Assembly (NCBI GenBank): GCA_002011035.2
Contig: MTLY02000002.1
Span: 32,001 to 96,000, forward strand
Reading direction: 5' to 3'
Origin: Candidatus Hecatella orcuttiae
Lineage (GTDB): Archaea; Thermoproteota; Bathyarchaeia; Hecatellales; Hecatellaceae
DNA: 64,000 bases
Shown: one piece after another, positions 22,448 to 64,000 of the stretch
How positions within the stretch are numbered: position 1 is the stretch's first letter
Layout of the letters: each line of letters begins with the position of its first letter
Notes under the pieces: generated by a model
Told to the model about the DNA's origin: nothing
Databases searched by the model: none
Seen by the model: the letters and a program-made list of their open reading frames with translations, nothing else
Program-made: the position numbers and the translations under genes

Positions 22448-22555
22448 ATGACCGTACATCAAATCATAGACGTAGTATATATTCTGTACGCGGTAGGCGT
22501 AGCGACATTTATGCTTCTCTATGTTCGCAAAATCACGCAGAAAGGAGGGGGGTAA
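22448..22555 (+). CDS. Unannotated 35-aa single-TM protein, probable small subunit (IIa-like) of the downstream heme-copper enzyme
   Basis: MTVHQIIDVVYILYAVGVATFMLLYVRKITQKGGG; first ORF after an AT-rich promoter; its 3' end contains the GGAGG RBS of subunit II. Confidence 0.65.
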   Translation: MTVHQIIDVVYILYAVGVATFMLLYVRKITQKGGG

Positions 22556-22559
22556 AAAG

Positions 22560-22982: not shown

Positions 22983-22997
22983 GGTGGAGGCTTTCCC

Positions 22998-48620: not shown

Positions 48621-49757
48621 TCAGCGGTAGACTCCGTATTCTCTCGCAGCCTTCACTAGGGCTTTAAAGTTCTCCGAGGGGGTATCGGGATTGGTGTCGC
48701 AGCCCGGCATCACTATGAAACCTCCCCCCTCTGCTGCGTAGTCTATGTTCCTTTTTACCGTTGCTCTAACCTGATCCGGAGTGCCCTCCAGCATGACAGA
48801 AATGGGGTCTATGTTGCCGCATACGCAGACCCTGTCGCCGACCATTTTCTTCACCGCTTTAAGCATGATGCTGTAAGGGTCGTCCGGGTCAAGGGCTACG
48901 GATTCGCCGACCACTTCCTTCAGGAATTTCAAGCTTAGCGGCCTTGTCTTCACATCTCCATAGTTGGCATGGATAGCGCCTGGAGATCCTTTCGGTATTA
49001 CATCCGCCGCCATCTGCAGAATTCCCGTTGTGTCTCCGCAGGGATGGTTAATGGGTATCATTCCAGCTTTGGCTATGGCATCGCAGTCTCTTGCTAAATA
49101 GGGTTTCACAAATTTTTCATGCTGCTTTGGAGACGTAGCCTCGGTGGACGCTACAGGGTCAAGAAGAGCCACGGCATGTGCACGGCCTTTAAAGGCGGTA
49201 TGGTATTTGATGGAATAATCGGTTATCTTGTCTAGCAGTGAATGGACTTTTTCAGGTTCCTTCACCATGGCCCTGAACATGGATTCATGTCCCATAAGAT
49301 TACAGGCTGTGCTGTAGGGCCCTGATACGATGACAGCGACTGCTATATGGTCTCCAACTTTATCCATCAGAATTCCCGCCTCTTCGATAACAGTTCTCAT
49401 CCTGGGATGCTCCTCTGGAGCCGGGAAGGTTAGGTTGTCCACATCCTCCCATGACTTTATTACCCTGTAACGAGTGTCCACGATGGGCATGTGCTTGCTC
49501 CAGTAGTTTTTAGCCCCCATGGCCTTTGCTTCAACGAAGCAGCCGTCGATGCCTGCGACGACGATATCGTCACCGAAATTTTCATTGGCAGCAATCTTTG
49601 CCTTCGCCATCTTTTCAGCATCATCGATGGCTGTTTGGGGTCTTTCCCCAATCTCCCAAAGGGCTCTCGTGATGGCTAGGGTGGCTACCGGCACTTGGTC
49701 TGGCTGTCCTCTCTGCAACGCTGTGGCAACCCTTTCAAGACTGGTCATTTTAGCCAT
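48621..49757 (-). CDS. MtaA/CmuA-like methylcobamide methyltransferase (UroD fold)
   Basis: Zn ligands HPCG and PGC, GNIDP; downstream of a corrinoid protein gene. Confidence 0.8.
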   Translation of the reverse strand: MAKMTSLERVATALQRGQPDQVPVATLAITRALWEIGERPQTAIDDAEKMAKAKIAANENFGDDIVVAGIDGCFVEAKAMGAKNYWSKHMPIVDTRYRVIKSWEDVDNLTFPAPEEHPRMRTVIEEAGILMDKVGDHIAVAVIVSGPYSTACNLMGHESMFRAMVKEPEKVHSLLDKITDYSIKYHTAFKGRAHAVALLDPVASTEATSPKQHEKFVKPYLARDCDAIAKAGMIPINHPCGDTTGILQMAADVIPKGSPGAIHANYGDVKTRPLSLKFLKEVVGESVALDPDDPYSIMLKAVKKMVGDRVCVCGNIDPISVMLEGTPDQVRATVKRNIDYAAEGGGFIVMPGCDTNPDTPSENFKALVKAAREYGVYR

Positions 49758-49774
49758 GATCTTCACCCTCCTCT

Positions 49775-50440
49775 CTATCCTCCACGCCCCACTAGGCTTC
49801 GAGCTGCTTCCACTGCCCCAGGGCCGTCGGCCGCCCACTTGTCACATCCTATCTGCCCCGCCCATTTTTCATTGGTCGACCTTCCTCCGACTAAAATTTT
49901 AAAGTCTTTTCGAAGCCCTCTTTTCTCCAGTTCTTCCACCACGTCTTTCACGTGGTCCCTAGTCACACTCATAAGGCAGGAGAGGGCTATGATGTCCGCT
50001 TTGACATCGACCGCCTTATCGATTATTTTGCCAGCCGGCATATCAACTCCCATGTCTTCGACGGTAAAGCCTGAGCCCTGCAAAAACAACCTCACGATGT
50101 TTTTTCCAATATCGTGGATGTCTCCCTCCACGGTTGCCAGCACAATCTTTCCGATTTCTTCTTCTTTTTTCCCAACTTCTTTTCCTAGATGTTCCAGTAT
50201 AGGTTTCATCACAGCTTGCAATGTTTCTCCGCAGAGGACGAGTTCTGAAAGGAAATACTCGCCTGTTTCATATTTTTCACCTATAATCTTGGTAGCCGGC
50301 AATATCGCCTCCGATATCAAAAACCTTGCAGATGCACCTTCGCTCAGCGCCTTATCCGTCAATTCCACGGCTTTCTCCGTATCGTACTCTACCAATGTCT
50401 GTTTCAGATTTTCAATATATTTGATCAATCTTGGCACCAT
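49775..50440 (-). CDS. Corrinoid (B12-binding) methyl-carrier protein, MtaC/MttC-like
   Basis: TVEGDIHDIGKNIV, SCLM and VGG motifs. Confidence 0.9.
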   Translation of the reverse strand: MVPRLIKYIENLKQTLVEYDTEKAVELTDKALSEGASARFLISEAILPATKIIGEKYETGEYFLSELVLCGETLQAVMKPILEHLGKEVGKKEEEIGKIVLATVEGDIHDIGKNIVRLFLQGSGFTVEDMGVDMPAGKIIDKAVDVKADIIALSCLMSVTRDHVKDVVEELEKRGLRKDFKILVGGRSTNEKWAGQIGCDKWAADGPGAVEAARSLVGRGG

Positions 50441-50632: not shown

Positions 50633-50752
50633 GGTTTACGGCCACAGCTTCCGGGGTAAGACCCGATCCCGTCCGATCTCGGAAGTGAATCCCGGAGGCG
50701 CCGCTCAATACTGCTCTCCGAAAGGGGGCGGGAAAGGGCGGTGCCGTGAACC
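50633..50752 (+). rRNA. rrf: 5S rRNA (stand-alone)
   Basis: Helix I GGTTTACGGC/GCCGTGAACC, ACCCGATCCCGTCCGATCTCGGAAGTGAA and AATACTG...GGGAA segments; ~120 nt. Confidence 0.88.
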
Positions 50753-53000: not shown

Positions 53001-53774
53001 TTAGCTTACTCTCCTCCCACCCCATTCCTGCCTGTAATGGCACTCATAGCAGTTTTCACCGAATCTTTCCGCCCATTCCTCATGGCAATTGATACACACA
53101 TCAACACGGGGTTTTATCTTCTCAAAGCCGCCTTCAGTGTGGCAAAGATCACAGTCGATTTTAGAGTGAGGCGTTTCTGTGTGGAGATACGTGATCACAT
53201 GACATCGGTCACATTCGGCGAAGTTTAAGTTGCCATATTCATCAGGCAAATGCCCTATAGGTGAACCCCAATCTTCCCGAGGATGGCATTTGTAACAATT
53301 GGTGTCCATCATGTATTCTGGAAGATCCTCATGGCAGTGTATGCAAACATCCACGGTAGGCACCTCGATTCCAGGTCCATGCATACCATGGCATTGTCTG
53401 CAGGCGATCTCCGAATGAGCCTTAACCTCGTGAAGACTGTTTCGGAGATGACATTCTTCGCAGATGGCTGATATCTGAGGATTGGTAAAGTTTATGAGAA
53501 CAGGAACCTCGTATATGCCTAGAACATATCTTCCTACCATGATCACCGACTGGGGTCCGCTTTCATGGCACAGATGACACTCGACGAAACTTTGTCCGTG
53601 AACTGATATCTCCCAGTCCTGAACAAAAGGCTCCATTATATGACATGCGCTGCAGTAGCGTGGATTTGAGATGATGCCGGTCCCTATCTGGTAAGTTAAA
53701 ACCGTAAAAGTGAGAAAGCTGAAAACTAGAATCATAACTAGGGCAGTGATCCCTATTTTCGCCACTCGACGCAA
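53001..53774 (-). CDS. Membrane-anchored decaheme cytochrome c (NapC/NirT-like N-terminus)
   Basis: N-terminal TM helix and 10 CxxCH motifs. Confidence 0.9.
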   Translation of the reverse strand: MRRVAKIGITALVMILVFSFLTFTVLTYQIGTGIISNPRYCSACHIMEPFVQDWEISVHGQSFVECHLCHESGPQSVIMVGRYVLGIYEVPVLINFTNPQISAICEECHLRNSLHEVKAHSEIACRQCHGMHGPGIEVPTVDVCIHCHEDLPEYMMDTNCYKCHPREDWGSPIGHLPDEYGNLNFAECDRCHVITYLHTETPHSKIDCDLCHTEGGFEKIKPRVDVCINCHEEWAERFGENCYECHYRQEWGGRRVS

Positions 53775-53787
53775 TTGAACCCCCCGG

Positions 53788-54495
53788 TTACAATTTCTTC
53801 AATACTGTTGTGCAACATCTATCTCCGTCGATAATGCAGTCTTCGAGTTTTACGTCATAGTTTCCAAGGCATCTACTAATGGATCGAAAATAGGCAGCGT
53901 GACCTTCGCAGAGGGTCTTGGGGCTGAGCTTCGAGATTTCGTAGAAGATGCAGTTGAAAATTTTTATCACCAAGTCCCCCTCAGGCGTTCTAGTTATCGA
54001 AGGATAACAACCCATTTTTTCCAGTTCGCTGAGCACATGAGTGCAGAATTTCTCCTCGTTCCATTGCTGAATTCGATGCTGAAGGCTAAGGTTTCTCATC
54101 ATGTTCTCCCCCATTTTTTCTCCAATCTCCCGGAGGAGAGTCGCTGCATATTTTTCACCTTTCTTATCAATAAGACTTTCCAGCAATAATTGAGCCAGCA
54201 GTTGGTACTGACGCTGGGGGAAACCTAGATTCATATATCTGTTTGCAATTTTATAATACTGTTTGGGTCTGCCTGGGCTGCCTCTTTCCTCCAAAAAGGA
54301 CTCTACTAAACCTGCGTTTTCCAAGATTCTCATATGGTGGCGGAGGGTTATGGTTTTGAGGTTAGTCTTTCTCGAAAGTTCATCCAAGTCTAAAGGTCCA
54401 CAAGTTACAAGAAGGTCTAATATAAATCTTCTAGGTTTGATGGAAAGAGCCTTATAGGCTTCTTCGTCTTTCAGGTTTGAATTTGTTGAGAACAA
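53788..54495 (-). CDS. ArsR-type HTH regulator with a Cys-rich C-terminal sensor domain (SufR/V4R-like)
   Basis: LRHHMRILE.AGLV, GRPKQYY, FPQRQY.LLA, NCIF, LCEGH and CIIDGDRCC motifs. Confidence 0.75.
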   Translation of the reverse strand: MFSTNSNLKDEEAYKALSIKPRRFILDLLVTCGPLDLDELSRKTNLKTITLRHHMRILENAGLVESFLEERGSPGRPKQYYKIANRYMNLGFPQRQYQLLAQLLLESLIDKKGEKYAATLLREIGEKMGENMMRNLSLQHRIQQWNEEKFCTHVLSELEKMGCYPSITRTPEGDLVIKIFNCIFYEISKLSPKTLCEGHAAYFRSISRCLGNYDVKLEDCIIDGDRCCTTVLKKL

Positions 54496-54755
54496 ATACT
54501 CACAACATATTCTATTGAAGCCTGCTTCTTTTATTTTTTTCTCTTTAATTATATATATGGATAATATAATATTTATTTAAATTACAAATGAAAGAAAAAT
54601 AATTATTAAGCGGAAATATCAAGTTCACCTCGAGCTTAACTCCCGTGCCTCAGAGGATACGGTAGGTTTAAGTTGTTTTCGAAGATAGCAATAGAATATA
54701 TCAACACATGAGTTGAGAACAAAATCTTTAGAGACTAAGGGAACAGTGTTTTCCA

Positions 54756-55475
54756 TTGAAAGAACACACACCAGTTGTTATCGAGCACCTCGCCAAGCGC
54801 TACGGCTTTAGATATGCGCTCCTAGATGTTACGTTGAGCGTGGGCCGGGGAGAAGTTTTTGGCCTCCTCGGTCCCAACGGCGCAGGCAAAAGCACACTTT
54901 TGAAAGTGCTTGCCACACTGGTGTCTCCATCCGGCGGCTCTGTACTAATAGACGGCCTCAGCTTGAAGGATAGGAAGGTGGAACTCCGGAGGAGGATAGG
55001 CTACCTAGGCCACGAGCCTCTTCTTTACAGGGACCTAACAGGTGAGGAGAATTTGAAGTTCTACTATAAGTTCTACCATTCTTCGCCTCCAGAGTACGTT
55101 CAGGAAAAATTGGATGAGGTATTTGAGCTTTTGAGGATAGGGGGCTGGCGGCATGAACCTGTCAGAAACCTTTCCAGAGGATTTAAGAAGAGGTTCGACT
55201 TTGCCAGAGCCATCATTCATGATCCTGAACTTCTGCTTTTCGACGAACCTTTTTCAGGCCTTGACATGGAAAGCCTAGAGGTCGCCCGTGAATTTGTGCG
55301 AAGCATGGAAGGGGAAAAGACTATCATCATCTCCACCCATAACATCGAAGAAGCCAAGGAGCTTTGCAACAAGGCAGCACTCCTAGCAAAAGGGCGACTT
55401 ATCCGCTTGTTGGAGGCCGGCGATATAGACGAGGTAAGCCTCAAAGACGCCTTTAAGGGAGGAGCCGCCCGTTGA
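54756..55475 (+). CDS. ccmA: Heme exporter ABC ATPase CcmA
   Basis: GPNGAGKST, YLGHEPLLY.DLT..ENL, LSRG and DEPFSGLD motifs; overlaps ccmB. Confidence 0.85.
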   Translation: MKEHTPVVIEHLAKRYGFRYALLDVTLSVGRGEVFGLLGPNGAGKSTLLKVLATLVSPSGGSVLIDGLSLKDRKVELRRRIGYLGHEPLLYRDLTGEENLKFYYKFYHSSPPEYVQEKLDEVFELLRIGGWRHEPVRNLSRGFKKRFDFARAIIHDPELLLFDEPFSGLDMESLEVAREFVRSMEGEKTIIISTHNIEEAKELCNKAALLAKGRLIRLLEAGDIDEVSLKDAFKGGAAR

Positions 55476-56164
55476 CAAGCCAAACTCTCCATGAGTTAAA
55501 ATGCGCCATCTACGTTGCATCCAAGGATCTTCTGGCTGAGTTGAGGAGGAAGTATGAAGTTTTTTCCATGCTCACTTTTGCCCTGATCTCTATCATAATA
55601 TTCAACTTCGCCTTCGGGATTTTCTCTGCCGCAGTGCACCAAGCGGTTCCCGCCATAATATGGATAATAATTTTGTTCGCAGGAATGTTCGGTTTTTCCA
55701 CGGTGTTCACGCGGGAAAGCGATCAAGGCACGCTCGACGGCTTGAGAATGCTTCCCATCTCCTCCCAGTCCATATTCTTGGGGAAAGTGGTCTACGGCTT
55801 CCTTCTGATGGGAGTCATCGAGGTGATTTTTGTTCCTTTGAGTATGGTGCTTTACAGCTACACCTTCACTTCCAGTTTCCTATTAACAGGATTGGTTTTC
55901 GTCCTAGGAACGTTGGACCTCGCTGTTGTGGGAGCTTTGGTCTCGGGTTTGACGATGTATACGGAGTCAAGGGCTCTGCTGATTCCTCTGTTGATGTTTC
56001 CGCTGGTGCTGCCGGTAGTTATCCCCCTCGTCATTCTGACCCAGAAACTCATCCTTGGAGTAGAGTTCTATTCTGTGCTGCCTGAGCTGAGGATGGTGGC
56101 TCTCACTTTGGCGGCGCTGGCAGCCGCCGCTCTCCTGCTTTTCGACTATGTCCTCCAAGATTGA
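55472..56164 (+). CDS. ccmB: Heme exporter permease CcmB
   Basis: KDL.AELR, F.RE.DQGTLDGL and LIPLL.FPL..PV motifs. Confidence 0.88.
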   Translation: MTSQTLHELKCAIYVASKDLLAELRRKYEVFSMLTFALISIIIFNFAFGIFSAAVHQAVPAIIWIIILFAGMFGFSTVFTRESDQGTLDGLRMLPISSQSIFLGKVVYGFLLMGVIEVIFVPLSMVLYSYTFTSSFLLTGLVFVLGTLDLAVVGALVSGLTMYTESRALLIPLLMFPLVLPVVIPLVILTQKLILGVEFYSVLPELRMVALTLAALAAAALLLFDYVLQD

Positions 56165-56204
56165 AGCTGAAAGTTTCCACTGGAGAGACAGTTGGCGAGA
56201 CGGT

Positions 56205-56339
56205 TTATTCCCCTTGCTCTTTCAGAGTGTGTAAGACCTTTCTGAGAGATGAAACTTTGCGGTCTAACCATAAGACATACAGGAAGATAACACCCCAGAA
56301 GATCATGGACATCGTCAGTAAGGTTTCTAAAAGCCCCAT
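56205..56339 (-). CDS. ccmD: CcmD-like small protein
   Basis: 44 aa (MGLLETLLTMSMIFWGVIFLYVLWLDRKVSSLRK...): single TM helix plus basic tail, directly after ccmC. Confidence 0.7.
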   Translation of the reverse strand: MGLLETLLTMSMIFWGVIFLYVLWLDRKVSSLRKVLHTLKEQGE

Positions 56340-56341
56340 TT

Positions 56342-57037
56342 TCACACCTCCTTTCCATATTTTACGGCCTCTGTTCTCTCCTCCATCCGAAGCAAGTCTA
56401 GGGTGATCCGGAAAAGCAAAACGTAGATCAACGTGACCGCAGCGAGGGCCACCATCAATGTGGCAACCATCGACCCTGTTATGAGTAAGCCCGTTGGTTT
56501 TATGACCACGGGGTGAAGCGTAAACCAGAGATGAACCGATAGATAGCTTAATGGCACAGTTATGAAGGCTACGATCCCCAACACAGCCGAAAGCCTCGCC
56601 CGCTTCTCCCTGTCTTCCACGGCCAGCCGAAAGGAAAGGTAAGCAACATAGACCAGCCAGAGGATAAGAGTGGTCGTCTCCCGTGGGTCCCAGTGCCAGT
56701 AGACCCCCCAAGCTGAACCAGCCCATAGAGACCCAAGTATCAAGGCCAGCCCACAGAAGACAACCCCCAACCTAGCTGAGGCGTCGGCGCAGAGGTCCCA
56801 GCCGCTTCGCCCGGTGCGCAGAAACATGAGACTTCCAACAAACGTAACCCCGAAGGCTAGGTAAGAAACCCACGCTGCTGGAACGTGAAGATAGAAAACT
56901 CTATAGAGCTCCCCCAACGTAGCCTCTGGAGGTGCGTAAAAATATGTGAGATAAATAGATAAAGCATTGAAGATAAAAACTAGGGGAAGGAATCCGTAGC
57001 GCCACAGAGCTTGACGGCGTTCTGAAACCACAACCAC
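56342..57037 (-). CDS. ccmC: Heme chaperone loader CcmC
   Basis: YLHVPAAW, WWD motif GSLWAGSAWGVYWHWDPRET and TLHP. Confidence 0.92.
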   Translation of the reverse strand: MVVVSERRQALWRYGFLPLVFIFNALSIYLTYFYAPPEATLGELYRVFYLHVPAAWVSYLAFGVTFVGSLMFLRTGRSGWDLCADASARLGVVFCGLALILGSLWAGSAWGVYWHWDPRETTTLILWLVYVAYLSFRLAVEDREKRARLSAVLGIVAFITVPLSYLSVHLWFTLHPVVIKPTGLLITGSMVATLMVALAAVTLIYVLLFRITLDLLRMEERTEAVKYGKEV

Positions 57038-57039
57038 TT

Positions 57040-58275
57040 TTATCCACTCCTCTTCTTCTGAGAATTATCTTCCTTTCCTCTCTTCAGTTTATTCAATTTT
57101 TTCTGAGCCTCCGTCTTACGGCTCTCATATCTGCGTATAAGCTGGACGTATACTTCTGGGGAGATAACTCCTAGCCTATAGTCAGACTCCAATCTACGGA
57201 GAGTAGCCTCGGAAGCCTGTAGCTCTCCTTCCAGTTGCATGATAGTTGAAACAGCCGATTTTACTCCCCCCTTTTTCCTTAGCATATTCAGATAAAGGGC
57301 AGCCACGCCTATAATAGCGATGACTCCCGACATCCAGAGAACAGAGTTGGCGATAAATCGAAGCTGAGATAAACCTGAAACCTTGACGATTATCTGGGAG
57401 CCGGCTTCCATCTTAGAGCCTAAAAGTGCTTGGTATACCTTGCCGTTCAACGTAGTTTCACCAGCGTTCTCCAACCCCTCCGCTTCCACTTCCACGCCCG
57501 GCTTCTTCTCCACCAGCACGTGGACTAGTTGGGTGGGATAGACTAGCTGTTTGGTGAAGACGCGCTCAGAGCGTTGGAGAGGGAGCTCGTATTCCACCCA
57601 TAACCTGTACTGACTGCCGGGATAAAGAGGTCCCATGGGGTCGAAGGTTACGGAGTCTTCGGAAGGAAACAGACAACAGTCCATCACGGGAGAGGTGAAG
57701 TTGTAGCGATCTGGGGGAACGTTTAGTCGTAGAGTACTGTTGGCGAAGACCAGCTCGCCCACGTTTTGGTAGACGAGAAGCTCGTAGACTCCTAAACGTT
57801 TCTCAAGGGGAGTTAGCAGTATGTAGTGGACGAGCACCCCAATGTCTTCGTCGCTGGATGTAACTTCGTAGACTATAAAGTCAGCCTGCACTGGCTCTTG
57901 GCCGTCTAACTTCACCATCTGAAAGTAGGGAACACCTTGATAAACAACCTCGATAACGAAAGTTTTGTTTACTGGCAAGGTTTCGAATTTATATTCACCC
58001 TCCCTGCCGGTAACCGTATCCGCAACGGTGATGAACTCGTCTCCGCGCAACTCTTTGAGTGAAACCTTTAAACCGGGAAGCGGGCCTGCTGAAGATGTTA
58101 CTTTCCCGACGATTACGCCGCTTTCCTCAGCGCCTTTTGCAACCTTTATGCCACTAAGACCGACGGCCATGATGGAGACCAGAAAAATAACCACTAACAA
58201 CTTGCTTAACCTGTTTGATGAGGAAACCGATCCCCAGAGACAAAGAGATGCCACCAAATCGTTTGTGAGACTCAT
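57040..58275 (-). CDS. Unknown secreted/membrane-anchored protein within the ccm operon
   Basis: Signal-like N-terminus, beta-rich (carboxypeptidase-regulatory/Ig-like) domain, C-terminal TM helix and coiled coil; start overlaps the ccmH stop and stop lies 2 nt before ccmC. Confidence 0.7.
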   Translation of the reverse strand: MSLTNDLVASLCLWGSVSSSNRLSKLLVVIFLVSIMAVGLSGIKVAKGAEESGVIVGKVTSSAGPLPGLKVSLKELRGDEFITVADTVTGREGEYKFETLPVNKTFVIEVVYQGVPYFQMVKLDGQEPVQADFIVYEVTSSDEDIGVLVHYILLTPLEKRLGVYELLVYQNVGELVFANSTLRLNVPPDRYNFTSPVMDCCLFPSEDSVTFDPMGPLYPGSQYRLWVEYELPLQRSERVFTKQLVYPTQLVHVLVEKKPGVEVEAEGLENAGETTLNGKVYQALLGSKMEAGSQIIVKVSGLSQLRFIANSVLWMSGVIAIIGVAALYLNMLRKKGGVKSAVSTIMQLEGELQASEATLRRLESDYRLGVISPEVYVQLIRRYESRKTEAQKKLNKLKRGKEDNSQKKRSG

Positions 58276-58775
58276 TTTTTCGCAACTCTTTCCCTAAACT
58301 TTTGGTATTCTTTCTCAAATATCTCATCGTACTTTGCCATGGCCGTCAGTAATTCCTCACTCTCATATTCTTCTTCCTCCAACTCCACATCGGAAGGTTT
58401 TCTATATGCTAAACGGTAAATTATGGCGGTTCCGCCGACAGCAGCTGCGATGGGAAGCACCCACAGCATTAGTTCTAAGCCGCTTTTCTGCGGGGTTGCC
58501 AGTATATTTTCCCCGTATATCATTTGAAGCTCGAAGATTATTTCCTCCTTCGTTTTCCCTTGACTTATCATCTGCTCTATCTGAGTACGCACCTTATAGG
58601 CGGTTTCACATTCACAGTCCGATAGAAGCATGGTACAGCCGCAGGGACACCATACACTGCGGGAAACCTCCTCCACTGTCGTTTTTACCTCTGAGGCTTG
58701 AACCGAGATCGGAAGCAACAGCAACCCGAATATGAAGACAAAGACTGCTATTTTTCTGGCGTTTTTCATCTTCAT
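58272..58775 (-). CDS. ccmH: Cytochrome c biogenesis protein CcmH
   Basis: CPCGC...A..VR.QI..MI..GKTKEEI...YGE.IL..P...LWVLP. Confidence 0.85.
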   Translation of the reverse strand: MKMKNARKIAVFVFIFGLLLLPISVQASEVKTTVEEVSRSVWCPCGCTMLLSDCECETAYKVRTQIEQMISQGKTKEEIIFELQMIYGENILATPQKSGLELMLWVLPIAAAVGGTAIIYRLAYRKPSDVELEEEEYESEELLTAMAKYDEIFEKEYQKFRERVAKK

Positions 58776-60739
58776 CGACCATTTCCCTTCAGGTCTTGGT
58801 TTTTCAGCACTGCTTTCTCGGAGCTGGTCATAGCAAATACTGTTGAAGCAAGCATCAGAAAAGCCCCGATCCATATGAGGTTCACAAATGGGAGTATTTT
58901 GACTTTAAAGGTGGCGTTATCCTCCCACACTTCTAAGGGGATAACGTAGAGATCCTTCAAGCCTACGGTATGGATGTGCACGCGTGTTATATATTGCTCC
59001 ATTTTTTCATAATATTCTATGGAAGGTGTTGCTTCATGTATCACCCGACCGTCTTTTAAAACTAGAAGAGAAACAGTGAAAACAGCCCGGTCGGCTTTCT
59101 CGCTCACTTTAACACCTTCGAAGGATAATGTGTACCCTTCTATGCTGTAGGTCTCTCCCCGACTGAGAGTAAACATACGCGAACTGTCATACACTGAGGA
59201 GGCTGTTATACCGACGAGTATGATTACGATGGAAATATGGACAAGGTATCCTCCGTAACGCCTTCGATTTTTCTGGACAGCACGCCAAAGATTTCTCACA
59301 TAACCGAAACCCTTGGTTTTACCCTCTGCCTTAATTCCCCTCCAAAACTCCAGCCCGTGAGAGGCTACCACGAATACGCATATAAACACCATAAGTAAAC
59401 CTACAAAATCCCGAATGCCGAGAAGAGGCGAGATAATCAAGCCTACCATGGATGCTACAATCGGCCAAGTGAAACTTCTTTTGAGACTGGCTATGTTTGC
59501 CCTCCTCCAAGCTATGGAGGGACATATCCCCATAAGGAAAATGAGGACCAAGCCTAAAGGCACAGTAACCTCATTGTAATATTCGGCTCCTATGGTCACT
59601 TGGAAACCTCGGAGGGCTTGGGAAATGAGGGGGAAAGTGGTTCCCACCAATATTACGACGGTTAAGACGACGAATAGGAGGTTGTTGAAGAGAAAGCTGA
59701 CTTCTTTTGAAAGAGACGCCTCAAAGATATTTCTGCTCCTGTAAACCTCATACTTGCTAACAAACAATCCCAGCGATGCAATTAGAGTGAGAACAATGAA
59801 AGTTGAGAAAAAGATCCCAATAGGCGACTCAGCGAAAGAATGAACCGAGGAGAGAATACCGCTTCTCGTCAAGAATGTTGCGTATATCACTAATATGAAG
59901 GTGAATGTTATAAGCAGAAAGTTCCATCTTTTCATGCCTCTTCTCTTTTCTTGTATCATAACCGAGTGGAGAAAAGCTGTGCCTACAAGCCAGGGCATCA
60001 AGGAAGCGTTTTCCACAGGATCCCAAGCCCAGTAGCCTCCCCAACCCAAAACACGATAAGCCCACCAGCCTCCTAAGACGATGCCTACACTCAAGAAAAT
60101 CCAAGCAGATAACGCCCATTTCCTAGAACGGTATATCCAGTGCTCATTTCCGGTTGCCAACCCTGCCATAGCATAGGCGAAGGGAATGGTGAAACCTGCA
60201 TAGCCTATGAGCAAAGTAGGCGGGTGGAAAATCATTCCAGGACTCCGAAGCAGAGGATTAAGGCCTAAGCCATCTACAGGCTTAAAGGAAAGCCTCTGAA
60301 AAGGGTTCGCCGCAAACATCAACGTAAATAGGAAAAAGAGCAGAGTTGCTGCTAGCGTGAGGGATTTGTAAATTGCGAATTCATCGTTTTTCTTATCCAC
60401 AAAAAGGGTTACCGCTGTGAACAGGGAAAGCGCCCAAGCCCACAGAAGAAGTGAACCCTCCTGTCCAGCCCAGAAGGCTGAGAGCGTGTATACCAAAGGC
60501 AGAGCTCTATTGGTGTGAGAAGCCACATACATGCTCTGGAAATCGCGAGTTACAAGTAAATAGAATAACCACAAGGCGGCTATGGTGATGAACACGCTGG
60601 CTAAGAGCAGAGCTCCCCTTCCAAACCTGATTAAACCCGGATGATTTTTTTTCAGGGATACACTAAACAGAATAATAGCGCAGAAGGTTGACAGGAAAGC
60701 CGATATCAGGCTTACGTATCCTATCATCCCTTTGCACAT
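58772..60739 (-). CDS. ccmF: Cytochrome c heme lyase CcmF
   Basis: FWAGQEGSLLLW, HPP, WGGYWAWDPVENASLMPW and TRSG...SVHSF motifs. Confidence 0.95.
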   Translation of the reverse strand: MCKGMIGYVSLISAFLSTFCAIILFSVSLKKNHPGLIRFGRGALLLASVFITIAALWLFYLLVTRDFQSMYVASHTNRALPLVYTLSAFWAGQEGSLLLWAWALSLFTAVTLFVDKKNDEFAIYKSLTLAATLLFFLFTLMFAANPFQRLSFKPVDGLGLNPLLRSPGMIFHPPTLLIGYAGFTIPFAYAMAGLATGNEHWIYRSRKWALSAWIFLSVGIVLGGWWAYRVLGWGGYWAWDPVENASLMPWLVGTAFLHSVMIQEKRRGMKRWNFLLITFTFILVIYATFLTRSGILSSVHSFAESPIGIFFSTFIVLTLIASLGLFVSKYEVYRSRNIFEASLSKEVSFLFNNLLFVVLTVVILVGTTFPLISQALRGFQVTIGAEYYNEVTVPLGLVLIFLMGICPSIAWRRANIASLKRSFTWPIVASMVGLIISPLLGIRDFVGLLMVFICVFVVASHGLEFWRGIKAEGKTKGFGYVRNLWRAVQKNRRRYGGYLVHISIVIILVGITASSVYDSSRMFTLSRGETYSIEGYTLSFEGVKVSEKADRAVFTVSLLVLKDGRVIHEATPSIEYYEKMEQYITRVHIHTVGLKDLYVIPLEVWEDNATFKVKILPFVNLIWIGAFLMLASTVFAMTSSEKAVLKNQDLKGNGR

Positions 60740-60751
60740 CCATCTACTAGC

Positions 60752-61141
60752 TTATTCCGAGGCCTCCGGAAGTTCTTCATATTTAGAAGGACACTTAACC
60801 AGCACTTTCTCAGCTTGGAGAACTGAATCTTGAAGGGTGCCGATCACCACAACTTCATTACCTTCTTGAAATCCTGAAGGATAAACTCCGAAATAGGTTA
60901 CCTCGATGGATGAGCGGTTGTCTGCAAGGATAAAAGTAAGAGTAGCTCCTACCCTCTCCACAGAGCCCTCCTTCACTATTCCTGTTACCTGAACCTGCCG
61001 CCCGTAATATTCGCTAGGCTTCTCCATCAGTTCAGAAACAGGGGTATAGGGTGTGATAGAACTTGTAAGCTGCTCATAAACTACGTAGCTACCTATTACC
61101 GCCAAGATAAGACAAAGCGCCACTATCCTCCGGGTCCTCAA
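60752..61141 (-). CDS. ccmE: Heme chaperone CcmE, CxxxY variant
   Basis: VLVKCPSKY heme-binding motif. Confidence 0.9.
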   Translation of the reverse strand: MRTRRIVALCLILAVIGSYVVYEQLTSSITPYTPVSELMEKPSEYYGRQVQVTGIVKEGSVERVGATLTFILADNRSSIEVTYFGVYPSGFQEGNEVVVIGTLQDSVLQAEKVLVKCPSKYEELPEASE

Positions 61142-61323
61142 GCTCGATACCCTACTTGTTTTAACATCGATATAATAGATATGAAAGTTCTTTTATAAAT
61201 ATTTAATAATCATATTTATTAAAATTTTTAATAATATTATTTATATATATATGTGCATAGAAAATTTTTTATCTTAATATTTAATAGTTATTAATTAAAT
61301 TAATTTAAAATCGAAGAAGAACC

Positions 61324-62415
61324 ATGCAACGCAAACTGAAAATCATTCAAATATCTACCGTATTCTTCATTCTTAACATATGCTTTTACCTTCTTTACAC
61401 CCTAGTCTTACGACCCTTCATGAACGCCCTTCCGATGGTGAGTAGAATCATTGCTTCAAACTTCCCCTTCTCAGCGAATCTTCCCTCAGCCTATTCACTT
61501 CAATTCTATGTGATAGCCTTCTACTTTTTCCTCATCACTGTTTTAGTACTGCTTTTCGCAGTGCATGTGCTTCTCGACACCGTGAAGAGGTGGAGGGAAG
61601 CCGAAAGTTTTCCCATAGAAACATCGAAAGCCAAGTTTGAGCGATTCTCCCTTAACCAGAGGCTTCAACACATCGTACTGATAGTGACCTTCACCATATG
61701 CGCTGTCACAGGCTTCGCTTTGAGATACTTCGACTCTTGGGGGGCCTTTGTGATTTACTTCCTAGGCGGACTTGAAGCGAGGCGGATAGTCCATATAGTC
61801 TCTGGCTTCACCATGGGCGGTCTAGCGATATACCACATGATCTATTACGGCCGCACCTTTTTCACCACGCACAAAAGGCGAGTTGAGATCATGTTTACCA
61901 AGAAAGATCTATCCAACTTAATAGCCAACATCAAATATCTCCTAAACTTAGCCAAAGAGAAGCCTAAATTTGGGCGATATAATTATATTCAAAAACTCGA
62001 TTATTGGGGTGTTGTATGGGGCATAGTGATTTTTGGTGCAAGCGGCATAGCCTTACTCTTTTTCAGGTCACCTTTTGGAGTGGGGATAGGGGCTCCTGAG
62101 CCTTATCTCCTCGTCGCCCTTCTGTTCCATGAAAGAGAAGCTGTTTTAGCCGTCTTAACTTTGCTGGTGCTCCATTTCTATTACTCCCACCTCAACGCTG
62201 ATGTTTTCCCCATGGATCGGGTGTGGATTACCGGAAGCGTGCCGGAAGAGATTATGCGCAGCGAGCATCCCTTAGAATTGGAGGGGATAAAAAAAGGTAA
62301 GGTAGAGCCGCCTCTTCCCCCTGTACCTTGGCAGTCCATATTTCTTACTTCCCTCATTCTGCTGTTCATCACCGTCATGATACTTTCATATTCGTATGCG
62401 CGGGGGTTGATATGA
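61324..62415 (+). CDS. Membrane cytochrome b (FdnI/HydC-like) with extra TM helices
   Basis: RFS..QRLQH, RIVH, YH, GRYNYIQK.DYW, HEREA.LA...LHFY and EHPLE motifs. Confidence 0.85.
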   Translation: MQRKLKIIQISTVFFILNICFYLLYTLVLRPFMNALPMVSRIIASNFPFSANLPSAYSLQFYVIAFYFFLITVLVLLFAVHVLLDTVKRWREAESFPIETSKAKFERFSLNQRLQHIVLIVTFTICAVTGFALRYFDSWGAFVIYFLGGLEARRIVHIVSGFTMGGLAIYHMIYYGRTFFTTHKRRVEIMFTKKDLSNLIANIKYLLNLAKEKPKFGRYNYIQKLDYWGVVWGIVIFGASGIALLFFRSPFGVGIGAPEPYLLVALLFHEREAVLAVLTLLVLHFYYSHLNADVFPMDRVWITGSVPEEIMRSEHPLELEGIKKGKVEPPLPPVPWQSIFLTSLILLFITVMILSYSYARGLI

Positions 62416-64000
62416 GAAATCTTAAGCATCTGACAGCAGGGCCAAAGATAAATAAGAGAGCGATGGCGGCTTTCTCGATCATTATTATTCTTTCTATCGC
62501 TTTTAACACAGCCTTCGCCTCAAAACCTTCTTTCCCCTCCCAATCTACCGCAGCTCCTCCCATGCCGGAAGACCATGAGGGACGTACCGTCTGTAAGGGC
62601 TGTCATGAAACGGGTGTAGCTGATGCTCCTCTTCTCCCCCCATCGCCTGATCACACAGTTTTCCCTGATGATTACGTGATGTGCAGTGGATGCCATGAAC
62701 TAGTTTTGTCGCCTACACCGTCCCCTACCATCGCAGTTACACCTTCACTTCCCCTGCCACCAGAAGAGTGTGGAGTATGCCACGAAGAGTACGAAGGATG
62801 GCAGCAGTCTATCCATGCTGAGAAAGGCGTCAACTGTCTTGTTTGCCATTCCGGCGTTGAAACCGTGCCTCACGAGGAAGTCGTAGTAGATCTGGCCGTG
62901 TGCAGTCAGTGCCATGGGGGAAGGTTTCAACTGGAAGTCATCAGCATCACTTGTAACTCATGTCACGATCCCCATAGTCAGACTTTGGAGGTTGAAGTCG
63001 CTAAGCTATGCAGTCGCTGCCATTCAGAGGAGTACCAGCGATGGAGTGACTCTGCTCACGGTTTGGCGGGAGTGGCCTGCGAGAAATGCCACCGTCATGC
63101 AGAGGTGGGGCACGTGCACAGGTTGGTAGAGGTCAGTTCTGTCCTTTGTGGTAGTTGTCATGTCGAGCAGTACCGGCTTGAGATAAAGCACGACATCAAC
63201 TGTGCTGACTGCCATGAACCTCACAGCCAAGACTTGAGAAAGAAGGTGCCGGAGTTATGCGATAGATGCCATGACGACATATATCGAGATTGGAATATGT
63301 CCCCTCACAAAGTAGAAGGAGTCTCATGCGACGTATGTCATCCTCATGCAGAAAGCGGCCATGTTCACAGGTGGATCAACGCCTCCTCTGCCGCTTGCGG
63401 ACAGTGCCATAAAACCTTTGAAGAATTAAGCGAATCGAAAATGGCTGTGTATGATATCACATGCACCAACTGCCATAACCCCCACTCCCAGGAAATTAGG
63501 ACCCCCACTGTTTCCACCCTCTGCGGGCGCTGTCACAATCAGACCACAAGTCCAGAATACTATTTCTGGAATGCCAGCGTCCATAAGGCTGTGGGAGCAA
63601 GTTGTGAGACATGCCACATGTACTCTGAAGGAGAGCGGTTCAGGCATAACTTTACTCAACCTCTCTTAGAAGAAGCATGTGAGCAGTGTCACGCGATCCT
63701 ACCTTCGGGAGAGTTACATGCCCTTCAGTACAGGACTGAGTATGAGATCAAGAAGGCTGAGGAGAAAATAAGGGCGGCTGAAGGAGTTATCGCCAAGGCC
63801 AAATCTGTCTTCAAAGTAAGTGAAAAAGACCCTCTAATGGTGAAAGCTGAAAGCATGCTGGCTGAGGCTGAACACATACTGGAAATGGTGAAGAATGAGA
63901 AAAGTCGAGGGTTCCATGCACCCATACTTACTCACATGCTTATATCCCAAGCCTTTAACTTGGGAGAGCAATCTCAGCGCATAGCTTTGGAGCTGGCGGG
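62412..64000 (+). CDS. Large multiheme cytochrome c (>=17 CxxCH), 3'-truncated; not in the ORF track
   Basis: ATG overlaps the cytochrome b stop; signal/TM segment; 17 CxxCH motifs by manual translation; helical C-terminal region with EKSRGFHAP; no stop before the window end. Confidence 0.9.
   Translation, partial: MRNLKHLTAGPKINKRAMAAFSIIIILSIAFNTAFASKPSFPSQSTAAPPMPEDHEGRTVCKGCHETGVADAPLLPPSPDHTVFPDDYVMCSGCHELVLSPTPSPTIAVTPSLPLPPEECGVCHEEYEGWQQSIHAEKGVNCLVCHSGVETVPHEEVVVDLAVCSQCHGGRFQLEVISITCNSCHDPHSQTLEVEVAKLCSRCHSEEYQRWSDSAHGLAGVACEKCHRHAEVGHVHRLVEVSSVLCGSCHVEQYRLEIKHDINCADCHEPHSQDLRKKVPELCDRCHDDIYRDWNMSPHKVEGVSCDVCHPHAESGHVHRWINASSAACGQCHKTFEELSESKMAVYDITCTNCHNPHSQEIRTPTVSTLCGRCHNQTTSPEYYFWNASVHKAVGASCETCHMYSEGERFRHNFTQPLLEEACEQCHAILPSGELHALQYRTEYEIKKAEEKIRAAEGVIAKAKSVFKVSEKDPLMVKAESMLAEAEHILEMVKNEKSRGFHAPILTHMLISQAFNLGEQSQRIALELA

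What the first reader, a model, noticed from the sequence alone, without database searches (positions are those of the whole stretch)
53001..64000. Self-contained multiheme-cytochrome island: 10-heme and >=17-heme cytochromes c, cytochrome b, own Ccm system and regulator
Seen: an ~11-kb block with very AT-rich divergent promoters (54496-54755, 61142-61323) encodes two multiheme cytochromes, a membrane cytochrome b, ccmABCDEFH and a Cys-rich HTH regulator. Known: cytochrome b plus multiheme cytochrome c modules (e.g. Geobacter CbcL/CbcBA) move electrons from a membrane carrier pool to outside-facing cytochromes for metal reduction or extracellular electron transfer. Multiheme cytochromes are patchy in archaea and not typical of Bathyarchaeia. 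Inference: a horizontally acquired, complete electron-export module. With the headless complex I upstream, it could give this probably anaerobic archaeon a respiratory or extracellular electron transfer chain. This is the best candidate for an undescribed system in the window.
Basis: partly seen in the sequence, partly recalled or inferred. Interest (0 to 1): 0.88.

Follow-up and report, generated by a model that had tools for sequence, protein, structure and literature searches.

The report
Acquired multihaem respiratory island in Bathyarchaeon
An archaeon from a group usually seen as fermenters carries, in one gene block, the machinery to make and mature three large multihaem cytochromes that probably carry electrons from its membrane to a reductase held out on the cell surface, one of whose haem sites has an unusual sequence.

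Summary
The block is real and larger than described. It holds an archaeal-type System I Ccm set (CcmE reads CxxxY), an ArsR-type regulator, a NrfH-like 10-haem cytochrome, a dihaem cytochrome b, and a cytochrome with exactly 17 haem motifs. Just past the window end lie an OcwA/NrfA-like cytochrome on a coiled-coil stalk and a second hemA.

These are the genome's only multihaem genes. Both flanks are native Bathyarchaeia genes, and read depth is even across the left junction.

CcmF was found in 0 of 13 same-family genomes and in 28 of 401 same-class genomes. The cytochrome b was found in 5 of 401. The 17-haem protein has no orthologue in the 400 others. Base composition is unremarkable, so acquisition is likely but old or mosaic.

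The island is not self-contained. Ahb haem synthesis and CcdA lie elsewhere, and no menaquinone pathway marker was found.

Best reading: electrons flow outward from a membrane carrier to a surface reductase. The acceptor may be insoluble (Fe(III), humics) or soluble N-oxides, and a gNOR-like gene lies 30 kb upstream.

The catalytic-type haem-5 site reads CxxCM. This variant recurs in relatives and turned up in no paper I could search. Verdict: a new variant of a known kind.

The parts
53001..53774 (-). MHC10: membrane-anchored 10-haem cytochrome c with a NrfH/NapC-like N-terminus
   Evidence: It has 10 CxxCH and one N-terminal TM helix. It matches TIGR03153 NrfH at E 4.5e-8 (33.2 bits, below the 134.2 cut-off) and D. 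vulgaris NrfH 2j7a_C at E 3.6e-4. The first motif reads CSACHIM, i.e. CXXCHXM. That this motif is the NrfH hallmark is recalled, not tested.
53788..54495 (-). ArsR-type winged-helix regulator with a Cys-rich C-terminal domain
   Evidence: HTH_5 scores 29.5 bits, over its cut-off. MetOD1 and SufR matches are below their cut-offs. It has 9 Cys. A 36% homologue lies beside the Ccm/cytochrome cluster of same-class genome G208.
54496..54755 (.). AT-rich divergent intergenic region (regulator/MHC10 on one side, ccmAB on the other)
   Evidence: GC is 0.296 against a genome mean of 0.519. Promoter function is inferred.
54756..56164 (+). ccmA and ccmB (haem-handling ABC ATPase and permease)
   Evidence: ABC_tran E 3.4e-31. 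TIGR01189 ccmA scores 116 bits, below its 131.6 cut-off. CcmB PF03379 scores 95.7 bits, over its cut-off.
56205..56339 (-). ccmD candidate (44 aa, one TM helix)
   Evidence: CcmD_alt scores 17.2 bits, below the 23.5 cut-off. It lies 3 nt after ccmC. There are 34-50% matches next to ccmC in L111, L116 and L138.
56342..57037 (-). ccmC
   Evidence: PF01578 scores 120.4 bits, over its cut-off. The WWD-type motif WGVYWHWD is present.
57040..58275 (-). 411-aa two-TM membrane protein of unknown family inside the ccm operon
   Evidence: CarboxypepD_reg scores 28.4 bits, below its cut-off. There is no NCBIfam match. Homologues of 24-28% sit next to ccmF in G064, G249, G213 and a Dehalococcoidales MAG. 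The protein atlas places it in bacterial hypothetical families, one of them fused to cytochrome c.
58272..58775 (-). ccmH
   Evidence: PF03918 scores 67.4 bits, over its cut-off. The Cys motif WCPCGC is present. The start was chosen at the internal Met that abuts the ccmF stop.
58772..60739 (-). ccmF (haem lyase)
   Evidence: CcmF_C scores 185.1 bits and PF01578 134.3 bits, both over their cut-offs. The motif WGGYWAWD is present. Identity is 45-49% to same-class G064, G249 and G213, 44% to a Dehalococcoidales MAG, and only 31% to G130.
60752..61141 (-). ccmE, variant with Cys in place of the haem-binding His (KCPSKY)
   Evidence: PF03100 scores 87.4 bits, over its cut-off. The CPSKY motif is present here and in 8 of 8 homologues examined.
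61142..61323 (.). Extremely AT-rich divergent intergenic region (ccmE operon on one side, cytochrome b operon on the other)
   Evidence: GC is 0.159. Promoter function is inferred.
61324..62415 (+). Dihaem cytochrome b (FdnI/HydC-type, PF01292) with extra N- and C-terminal TM helices
   Evidence: PF01292 scores 50.1 bits, over its cut-off. His116, 157, 171, 269, 284 and 315 are invariant in 5 homologues. Its stop overlaps the next gene's start by 4 nt.
62412..64000 (+). MHC_A: 17-haem cytochrome c (566 aa) with a signal peptide and a C-terminal TM anchor. It runs 112 nt past the window end. Downstream on the same strand, outside the window, lie MHC_B (L002 3267-5150) and hemA (L002 5196-6545).
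   Evidence: It has 17 CxxCH and matches Cytochrome_C7, Cytochrom_C552 and DmsE-type decahaem families. No orthologue was found in 400 same-class genomes. For MHC_B: OcwA 6i5b at E 3e-35 by sequence, and Foldseek E 2.1e-19 on a model with pLDDT 84. hemA: TIGR01035 scores 413 bits, over its cut-off.

Best explanation
This is a laterally assembled respiratory module in the chromosome of a Bathyarchaeon.

The variant System I Ccm genes (CcmABC(D)EFH, with CcmE reading CxxxY) attach haem to three membrane-anchored multihaem cytochromes on the outer face of the membrane. These are the genome's only multihaem genes.

Two membrane entry points are proposed. One is a NrfH-like decahaem cytochrome. The other is an FdnI-type dihaem cytochrome b that is translationally coupled to the 17-haem cytochrome. 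Both are proposed to oxidise a lipid-soluble carrier reduced by the headless complex I.

Electrons then pass along the membrane-proximal 17-haem relay to MHC_B. MHC_B is an OcwA/NrfA-family nonahaem-type reductase held away from the membrane on a roughly 70-residue coiled-coil stalk with a C-terminal anchor. It would reduce an acceptor at or beyond the S-layer, most likely insoluble or macromolecular (Fe(III) minerals, humics or a partner cell).

Shown: the gene content, the haem motifs, the topology signals, the family memberships, the haem-synthesis genes, the patchy distribution, and the native flanks.

Inferred: the direction of electron flow, the contacts between the proteins, the carrier, the acceptor, and that the CxxCM site binds haem.
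For: - Gene identities and motifs.
- Only three multihaem ORFs exist in the 97%-complete genome, and no class-I cytochrome c family match was found. Ccm therefore serves these three.
- MHC_B's best solved relative is OcwA, by both sequence and fold. OcwA is the cell-surface Fe(III)-oxide reductase of Thermincola. The next best is OmhA, the S-layer cytochrome (PMC6703420 passages).
- The model shows a long C-terminal helical stalk plus a TM helix. There is a weak SlaB stalk match at E 1e-4.
- The same kind of tail occurs on non-cytochrome ORFs across the class, which suggests a host-type surface anchor.
- Cytochrome b homologues (542 or more loci) lie next to multihaem genes in 42 of the 80 best loci, including many Methanoperedens. 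There, b-type cytochrome plus MHC clusters are proposed as menaquinone:cytochrome c oxidoreductases (PMC7327174 passages).
- Haem supply is encoded: AhbA and AhbB over their cut-offs, AhbC- and AhbD-like genes, and HemA, B, L, C and D. A duplicated hemA (71.6% identical) abuts MHC_B.
- The DNA belongs to the chromosome. A 30.6-kb independent-assembler contig bridges the left junction, with depth 311/309/312 across flank, island and flank. The flanking TgtA, LysRS and ArgRS are lineage-typical.
Against: - No MqnA, MqnC or MenB was found. The MqnC-like hit is CofH. The membrane carrier is therefore unknown.
- The C-terminal module of MHC_B is NrfA-like. Its closest relatives (47-53% identical) include four with the nitrite-reductase-type CxxCK motif, and public records call them NrfA. 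A gNOR-like gene lies 30 kb upstream. Together these favour soluble N-oxides as substrate.
- No expression data were found.
- Haem 5 lacks the canonical His, so that site may be empty.
- Base composition gives no sign of recent transfer.
Confidence: 0.45

Rival explanations
1. The same hardware works as a NrfHA-like reductase for soluble nitrogen (or sulfur) oxyanions. The NrfH-like decahaem cytochrome and cytochrome b feed MHC_B, whose haem-5 pocket reduces nitrite, hydroxylamine or NO. This would serve either respiratory ammonification or detoxification. The gNOR-like enzyme upstream would remove NO.
For: - MHC_B aligns with NrfA/ONR over residues 352-530, at E down to 4e-14.
- Haem 5 is the NrfA-type catalytic position, and both distal His-His motifs of OcwA are kept.
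- Four of the 120 family hits have CxxCK at this site, and all four are 47-53% identical to MHC_B.
- MHC10 carries the CXXCHXM first motif.
- An HCO subunit I has Asp in place of the CuB His and of the cross-link Tyr, and its subunit II lacks the CuA cysteines. This matches the published description of gNOR (PMC11214002 passages).
- OcwA itself reduces nitrite and hydroxylamine.
Against: - A stalk that lifts the enzyme off the membrane and a 17-haem relay are not needed for a soluble substrate.
- MHC_B has Met, not Lys or His, at the proximal position.
- TIGR03153 (NrfH) and the NrfA equivalog models score far below their cut-offs.
- I did not search for nitrate or nitrite transporters or for a nitrate reductase.
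Confidence: 0.3
2. The chain runs inward. The surface cytochromes take electrons from Fe(II), reduced humics, a cathodic mineral or a partner cell. They pass them to the membrane carrier pool to support CO2 fixation by the Wood-Ljungdahl pathway.
For: - Multihaem chains are reversible in principle (general knowledge).
- The genome has the Mtr and H4MPT-type C1 genes beside the island and no McrA.
- No terminal oxidase-type sink was identified other than the gNOR-like enzyme.
Against: - The closest characterised relatives (OcwA, NrfA, NrfH) all act as reductase systems.
- No Cyc2- or MtoA-type oxidation markers were looked for or seen.
- Uphill electron flow to ferredoxin would need an energised step that has not been identified.
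Confidence: 0.1
3. The island is present but not functional as a respiratory chain. It would be a decaying or orphan acquisition that lacks a compatible membrane carrier and has a damaged haem-5 site.
For: - No menaquinone pathway markers were found.
- The CxxCM site departs from the His that E. coli Ccm requires (recalled).
- No RNA run holding this DNA was listed, so expression could not be tested.
Against: - All 13 island genes have intact frames.
- CxxCM is conserved with both cysteines in 10 other family members and arose at least twice.
- A haem-synthesis cluster and an extra hemA are maintained.
- The DNA is 99-100% identical in runs from 8 studies.
Confidence: 0.1
4. Assembly or binning artefact: the block belongs to another organism and was joined to a Bathyarchaeal contig.
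For: - CheckM-type contamination is 4.25%.
- Short-read contigs break inside hemA and at a tRNA-like element on the right side.
Against: - The contig is 481 kb long, and lineage-typical genes lie on both sides.
- A 30.6-kb Logan contig bridges the left junction, and depth is equal across flank, island and flank.
- The right-side breaks are explained by the 77%-identical hemA paralogue on C3 and by tRNA-like repeats on C1.
- Tetranucleotide use is ordinary for the genome.
Confidence: 0.03

Closest known systems
OcwA, nonahaem cell-surface terminal reductase of Thermincola potens (PDB 6I5B), and OmhA of Carboxydothermus ferrireducens (6QVM)
   Same: - Best sequence match (E 3e-35) and best fold match (E 2.1e-19, TM 0.68 by target) for MHC_B.
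- Same order of nine haem sites.
- c554-like N-terminal module plus NrfA-like C-terminal module.
- C-terminal three-helix bundle, and both distal His-His motifs.

(PMC6703420 passages)
   Different: - Only 26-28% identical.
- The haem-5 motif is CLSCM, not CLKCH.
- The haem-9 motif is CX5CH.
- It is archaeal, and it is anchored by a coiled-coil stalk plus a TM helix rather than sitting on a Gram-positive wall.

NrfHA cytochrome c nitrite reductase complex (e.g. Desulfovibrio vulgaris, 2J7A)
   Same: - A membrane-anchored NapC/NrfH-like cytochrome with a CXXCHXM first motif.
- A NrfA-related catalytic-type cytochrome in one locus.
- Close relatives of MHC_B carry the CxxCK motif.
   Different: - MHC10 has 10 haems, not 4.
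- The two genes are 10 kb apart on opposite strands.
- The NrfH and NrfA equivalog models score far below their cut-offs.
- The proximal ligand is Met.
b-type cytochrome plus multihaem cytochrome 'menaquinone:cytochrome c oxidoreductase' clusters of Methanoperedenaceae (groups with a b-type cytochrome next to a 6-haem MHC), and Geobacter CbcL (recalled)
   Same: - A PF01292-type dihaem cytochrome b sits directly upstream of a multihaem cytochrome.
- Homologues of this cytochrome b (33-41% identical) occur in many Methanoperedens MAGs.
- In 42 of the 80 best loci they lie next to multihaem genes.

(PMC7327174 passages)
   Different: - The partner has 17 haems and no detectable orthologue in the class.
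- Identity to any cytochrome b found is at most 42%.
- No menaquinone pathway markers were found.
- The host has no Mcr.
Variant System I cytochrome c maturation with CcmE CxxxY (archaea, Desulfovibrio; recalled from Allen et al. 2006 and Kletzin et al. 2015, neither read here)
   Same: - CcmA, B, C, E, F and H are present.
- CcmE reads KCPSKY.
- No CcmG or CcmI was recognised in the island by the family scans.

   Different: - A conserved 411-aa membrane protein of unknown family is inserted between ccmH and ccmC.
- The substrate set includes CxxCM and CX5CH sites.

Membership tests
System I cytochrome c maturation (Ccm), CxxxY variant | CcmC and CcmF with a WWD-type tryptophan-rich motif | tested here: met
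   The motifs read WGVYWHWD (CcmC) and WGGYWAWD (CcmF). Pfam PF01578 and PF16327 both score over their cut-offs.
System I cytochrome c maturation (Ccm), CxxxY variant | CcmE haem chaperone with a (H/C)xxxY haem-binding motif | tested here: met
   PF03100 scores 87.4 bits. The motif is CPSKY, and the same motif is present in 8 of 8 homologues examined.
System I cytochrome c maturation (Ccm), CxxxY variant | CcmAB ABC module and the small CcmD | tested here: inconclusive
   CcmB scores over its cut-off. CcmA scores highest against generic ABC models, and TIGR01189 gives 116 bits against a 131.6 cut-off. The CcmD candidate scores 17.2 bits against 23.5.
System I cytochrome c maturation (Ccm), CxxxY variant | Thiol-reduction branch (CcmH CxxC; CcdA/DsbD) | tested here: met
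   CcmH PF03918 scores over its cut-off and carries WCPCGC. DsbD_TM scores 43.2 bits, over its cut-off, but lies on contig C1, outside the island.
NapC/NrfH quinol dehydrogenase family | N-terminal TM helix followed by a tetrahaem core whose first motif is CXXCHXM | tested here: inconclusive
   The TM helix and CSACHIM are present. TIGR03153 scores 33.2 bits against a 134.2 cut-off, and the protein has 10 haems. Quinol binding is not testable with these tools.
OcwA/OmhA clade of the NrfA-c554-octahaem superfamily | Nine haem sites in OcwA order, with the c554-like and NrfA-like modules and the C-terminal helix bundle | tested here: met
   The phmmer match to 6i5b has E 3e-35 over two stretches that cover residues 32-519. 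Foldseek ranks OcwA first and second and OmhA third.
OcwA/OmhA clade of the NrfA-c554-octahaem superfamily | His-ligated, pentacoordinate catalytic haems 2 and 5, with distal His-His motifs | tested here: not met
   Both His-His motifs are kept, but the haem-5 motif is CLSCM, with Met in place of the proximal His. Coordination state is not testable with these tools.
NrfA (ammonia-forming cytochrome c nitrite reductase) | Pentahaem enzyme with a CxxCK (or CxxCH) catalytic haem, scoring as an equivalog | tested here: not met
   NF008339 scores 58.6 bits against a 595 cut-off, and TIGR03152 scores 38.4 bits against 692.5. The motif is CxxCM. Only the C-terminal module aligns.
FdnI/HydC-type cytochrome b (PF01292) | Four-helix core with four haem-ligating histidines | tested here: met
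   PF01292 scores 50.1 bits against a 30.1 cut-off. His116, 157, 171, 269 and 284 are invariant in the alignment.
Menaquinone:cytochrome c oxidoreductase (b-type cytochrome plus MHC) | Adjacent cytochrome b and multihaem genes, plus a quinone pool in the host | tested here: inconclusive
   Adjacency is met, with a 4-nt overlap. No MqnA or MenB was found, and the MqnC-like hit is CofH.

The most novel reading that the evidence does not exclude
CxxCM is a natural c-type haem attachment motif. The proximal ligand of the NrfA-type catalytic haem would be methionine, beside the known His and Lys forms. A variant archaeal Ccm system would mature it. It would sit in a surface-stalked reductase that gives a member of the supposedly fermentative or acetogenic Bathyarchaeia a true anaerobic respiratory chain: headless complex I, cytochrome b or NrfH-like entry, 17-haem relay, then the reductase, with a gNOR-type enzyme alongside.

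The motif recurs in 10 other family members. On the tree it needs at least 3 His/Met changes. It alternates with CxxCH inside the repeat units of an unrelated 1622-aa cytochrome.
Probability: 0.35. Interest if true: 0.8.

Novelty: new variant of a known kind. Interest (0 to 1): 0.62.

Why it matters
Bathyarchaeia are among the most abundant archaea in anoxic sediments and are modelled as fermenters and acetogens. The one cultivated member is reported to lack c-type cytochromes, quinones and oxidases (PMC10477458 passage).

A complete cytochrome-maturation, haem-synthesis and multihaem-reductase kit appears in one lineage. Related Ccm plus OcwA-like cassettes appear in a minority of the class. 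Some members may therefore respire minerals, humics or nitrogen oxides. That would change how carbon, iron and nitrogen budgets are assigned in sediments.

The CxxCM, CxxCK, CxxCR and CxxCH series at one catalytic haem position is a natural experiment on axial ligation. It can be tested directly by expression and spectroscopy.

Tried and rejected
- Complex prediction on cytochrome b plus the 17-haem protein gave no verdict (score 0.01). It is no evidence either way.
- The look-up of sequencing runs listed no RNA holder, so there is nothing on expression.
- ARAGORN found no tRNA in the 20-kb locus. The tRNA-like 104-nt element was seen only through a weak tmRNA-model match, at E 2e-4 and below the gathering score.
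- No direct or inverted repeat of 11 nt or more links that element to the left border. I claim no integration site.
- Left-flank synteny could not be used. In G002, the 19 kb upstream of LysRS holds no homologue of any G000 gene from the region tested.
- The MqnC hit (401 bits) turned out to be CofH, and its neighbour is CofG.
- My first idea, prompted by the Mtr operon, was that the host might be an ANME or alkane-oxidising archaeon. No McrA was found and TgtA points to Bathyarchaeia, so I dropped it.
- My reading of the HCO gene as evidence of aerobic respiration was dropped once the active-site His and Tyr proved to be Asp.
- The k-mer search with cytochrome b found only 5 proteins. The pattern scan showed the family is in fact large.
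- Supplementary files of the papers were closed. The Methanoperedenaceae cytochrome b trees (Fig. S7) and the gNOR sequence lists could not be compared with my sequences.

Full report
**Where the window lies.** The window is G000:C2:32001-96000, in a 1.75-Mb genome of 3 contigs. Completeness is 97.1% and contamination 4.25%. I laid the genome in the script box and fetched the DNA beyond the window end.

**What is in the block.**

On the minus strand:
- a 257-aa cytochrome with 10 CxxCH and one N-terminal TM helix (53001-53774);
- an ArsR-type HTH protein with 9 Cys (53788-54495).

After an intergenic region of GC 0.296, on the plus strand: ccmA and ccmB (54756-56164).

Convergent with them, on the minus strand:
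- ccmE (60752-61141);
- ccmF (58772-60739);
- ccmH (58272-58775);
- an unmentioned 411-aa two-TM protein (57040-58275);
- ccmC (56342-57037);
- a 44-aa ccmD candidate (56205-56339) that scores below the Pfam cut-off.

A 182-nt spacer of GC 0.159 separates ccmE from a divergent operon. That operon holds:
- a PF01292 cytochrome b (61324-62415);
- overlapping its stop by 4 nt, a 566-aa cytochrome with exactly 17 CxxCH, a signal peptide and a C-terminal TM helix. It ends 112 nt past the window.

The contig then carries:
- a third cytochrome, MHC_B (627 aa, L002 3267-5150);
- hemA (L002 5196-6545);
- a tRNA-like element;
- LysRS, a TBP-like gene, ArgRS and an mtrEDCBA(F)-H operon.

**These are the genome's only multihaem genes.** A six-frame scan found 4 ORFs with 2 or more CxxCH. 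Three are these, and the fourth (2 motifs) is DnaJ. No class-I cytochrome c family match exists. The Ccm genes therefore serve these three proteins.

**Host and authenticity.**
- The window's archaeosine tRNA-ribosyltransferase has 120 listed homologues. Ten carry an organism name. Nine are Bathyarchaeota, Bathyarchaeia or Bathyarchaeales, and one is Nitrososphaerota. The best identity is 60%.
- LysRS on the other side of the island has 61-68% orthologues in same-family genomes, with ArgRS next to it as here.
- No McrA was found.
- The island DNA occurs in 9 DNA runs from 8 studies.
- In run X1 a 30.6-kb contig from an independent assembler bridges the left junction. Depth is 311, 309 and 312 over left flank, island and right flank. 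X1 may be the source sample.
- Contig breaks inside hemA and just after it are explained. There is a 77%-identical hemA paralogue on C3, and there are tRNA-like repeats on C1. The loose ends map to these.

I put a chimera or mis-binning at about 3%.

**Distribution.**
- With the CcmF protein, 0 of 13 same-family genomes and 2 of 47 other same-class genomes had a real match.
- With the CcmF_C family, 28 of 401 sampled class genomes (G000 included) scored over the cut-off. They are concentrated in families f14 (20 of 71) and f16 (8 of 16).
- The cytochrome b matched in 5 of 401 including G000, at 24-42% identity.
- MHC_B matched 71 of 401 at E<=0.001. Most of those matches cover only the coiled-coil/TM tail (about residues 500-625), on ORFs that are not cytochromes. 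About 12 genomes match the haem domain, and the best is G130 at 48-54%.
- The 17-haem protein matched 7 of 401 at E<=1e-8. The six foreign hits (26-34%) fall on MHC_B-like genes, so no orthologue was found.

**Mosaic origin.** The parts have different nearest relatives.
- CcmF is 45-49% identical to f14 genomes G064, G249 and G213, and 44% to a Dehalococcoidales MAG. All of these also carry the 411-aa gene next to ccmF. CcmF is only 31% identical to that of G130, whose MHC_B homologue is the closest.
- The cytochrome b family is large: 599 pattern matches, of which 542 were confirmed. Its best members (30-42%) are in Methanoperedens, Nitrospirota, WOR-3, Bipolaricaulota and others.

Composition does not single out the island. 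GC is 0.469 against a mean of 0.519, which is the 9th percentile. In tetranucleotide use, 12% of equal-length windows are at least as deviant. I conclude that acquisition is likely, piecemeal and not recent.

**Not self-contained.**
- Contig C3 carries AhbA and AhbB (both over their cut-offs), AhbC-like and AhbD/NirJ2-like radical-SAM genes (below their cut-offs), and HemA, HemB, HemL, HemC, CobA and HemD.
- The hemA beside MHC_B is a 71.6%-identical paralogue of the C3 copy.
- In the family, HemA was found in 1 of 13 genomes (G003, 32%). AhbB scored over its cut-off in that same one.
- A CcdA/DsbD_TM gene lies on C1.
But it sits elsewhere in the genome and is itself unusual for the family.
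- No MqnA or MenB was found, and the MqnC-like hit is CofH. The membrane carrier is unknown.
- Complex I is headless. NuoD, NuoH and NuoL/M/N-like genes are in the window, and no NuoF family match exists in the genome. Close NuoD orthologues (65-74%) occur in 3 of 13 relatives.

**The third cytochrome, MHC_B.**
- Its best solved relative is OcwA of Thermincola potens, at E 3e-35 over residues 32-519.
- An AlphaFold2 model from a 63-row alignment has pLDDT 84.1 and pTM 0.77. It matches OcwA first (E 2.1e-19), then OmhA, MccA, ONR and NrfA.
- In OcwA, hemes 2 and 5 are pentacoordinate putative active sites, each with a distal His-His motif. Hemes 5-9 superimpose on NrfA (PMC6703420 passages).
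- MHC_B keeps both His-His motifs and seven canonical CxxCH.
- The haem-5 site reads CLSCM, and the haem-9 site reads CGQAIGCH, i.e. CX5CH.
- After the NrfA-type helix bundle comes a coiled coil of about 70 residues and a TM helix. There is a weak SlaB match.

**The CxxCM site.**
- Among 10 same-class homologues, 7 of the 8 that keep this segment have CxxCM and 1 has CxxCH.
- Among the 150 best cluster representatives of an exhaustive search, 55 have CxxCH there, none has CxxCM, and one has CxxCR.
- Among the 120 best hits of a profile search, the counts are 92 CxxCH, 11 CxxCM (one is this protein), 4 CxxCK, 2 CxxCR, and 11 gapped or other.
- The four CxxCK proteins are 47-53% identical to MHC_B and share its stalk.
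- On a 32-row tree, MHC_B groups with two CxxCH proteins (support 98). The other CxxCM proteins lie in the sister group. At least 3 His/Met changes are needed.
- An unrelated 1622-aa cytochrome has 7 CxxCM in repeat units, where one unit has CARCH instead.
- Both cysteines are always kept, which argues for a haem-binding site with a changed axial ligand.
- Full-text searches for CXXCM and four spelling variants found no natural motif. They found only a mutagenesis paper on mitochondrial HCCS. The library lacks most subscription journals.
- Named family members are Bathyarchaeota or Bathyarchaeia records annotated as nitrite reductase c552.

**Function.** The anatomy fits an outward chain with two carrier-oxidising entry proteins:
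- MHC10, with a NrfH-like N-terminus and a CXXCHXM first motif. That this motif is the NrfH hallmark is recalled.
- The dihaem cytochrome b.

These would feed a membrane-proximal 17-haem relay, and then a stalked terminal reductase.

Cytochrome b plus MHC pairs of this kind are proposed as menaquinone:cytochrome c oxidoreductases in Methanoperedenaceae, and are said to be laterally transferred (PMC7327174 passages).

The acceptor is open.
- The surface stalk, the 17-haem relay and the matches to OcwA and OmhA favour insoluble or macromolecular acceptors.
- The NrfA-type module, the CxxCK relatives and a gNOR-like gene pair 30 kb upstream favour N-oxides.

In that gene pair (window 22521-24587), subunit I has Asp where ba3 oxidase has the CuB His and the cross-linked Tyr. 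Subunit II lacks the CuA cysteines. This matches the published description of gNOR (PMC11214002 passages). It is absent from 13 of 13 relatives.

My odds are 0.45 and 0.30. OcwA itself does both kinds of chemistry.

**Literature.**
- Searches pairing Bathyarchaeia or Bathyarchaeota with multiheme, multi-heme plus extracellular electron transfer, cytochrome c maturation, and c-type cytochrome found no description of such a system.
- One paper reports no multihaem complexes in 19 MAGs (PMC9534799 passage).
- The cultivated Bathyarchaeum tardum lacks c-type cytochromes, quinones and oxidases (PMC10477458 passage).
- One 2026 paper assigns 15-25% of iron-reduction marker taxa in deep estuarine layers to Bathyarchaeota, without characterising the genes (PMC13212322 passages).

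**Verdict.** The system is a new variant of known kinds: variant Ccm, cytochrome b/NrfH entry modules, and an OcwA/NrfA-family reductase. Its host is unusual, and it carries an unreported haem-motif variant.

Noticed in passing
window 22521-22982 (+) and 22998-24587 (+): This is a haem-copper-oxidase-like gene pair. Subunit I (COX1, E 1.9e-62) has Asp where ba3 oxidase has the CuB-ligand His and the cross-linked Tyr. Subunit II is a cupredoxin whose CuA cysteines are Ser. This fits the published description of the putative quinol-dependent NO reductase family gNOR. It was not found in 13 of 13 same-family genomes.
   Followed up: partly
window 57040-58275 (-): A 411-aa protein sits between ccmH and ccmC. 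It has an N-terminal TM helix, a weak CarboxypepD_reg domain, a second TM helix and a charged coiled tail. Homologues sit beside ccmF in three same-class genomes and in a Dehalococcoidales MAG. Atlas neighbours are bacterial hypothetical families, one of them fused to cytochrome c. It may be an undescribed Ccm accessory protein.
   Followed up: partly
L002 4482-4505 (MHC_B residues 406-413): The ninth haem site of MHC_B reads CGQAIGCH (CX5CH). The same spacing is kept in 9 of its 10 closest relatives aligned. More distant relatives have CxxCH there.
   Followed up: partly
proteins P0294, P0295, P0297, P0301, P0296, P0326, P0204: At the haem-5 position the family also shows CxxCK (4 proteins) and CxxCR (2 proteins). 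A 1622-aa cytochrome (P0204) carries 7 CxxCM in repeat units, with one CARCH unit.
   Followed up: partly
L002 5196-6545 and L145 7636-8958: There are two hemA genes, 71.6% identical at the protein level and 77% at the DNA level. One is in the Ahb/Hem cluster on C3 and one directly follows MHC_B. The paralogy breaks short-read assemblies here.
   Followed up: yes
L146 17372-17475 (-), about 330 nt after hemA: A 104-nt tRNA-like element with acceptor and T arms and an encoded CCA. It is probably an intron-bearing tRNA. ARAGORN missed it, and it was seen only as a weak tmRNA-model match. No repeat of it occurs at the island's left border.
   Followed up: partly
window 50634-50752 (+): A 5S rRNA gene (73.1 bits, above the gathering score) lies 2.2 kb left of the island.
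   Followed up: no
L002 14552-19001: An mtrE, D, C, B, A(F fused) and H-like operon sits in a genome with no McrA match. There is also a methyltransferase (URO-D family) with a corrinoid-protein gene at window 48621-50440.
   Followed up: no
MHC_B residues about 500-627; many same-class genomes: The coiled-coil plus TM tail of MHC_B matches the tails of many otherwise unrelated ORFs across the class, including same-family genomes G002, G005 and G009. This suggests a shared surface-anchoring module.
   Followed up: no
same-family genomes G001-G013: Twelve of 13 relatives gave no HemA match, and 12 of 13 gave no AhbB match over the cut-off. De novo tetrapyrrole synthesis itself looks unusual in this family.
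   Followed up: partly
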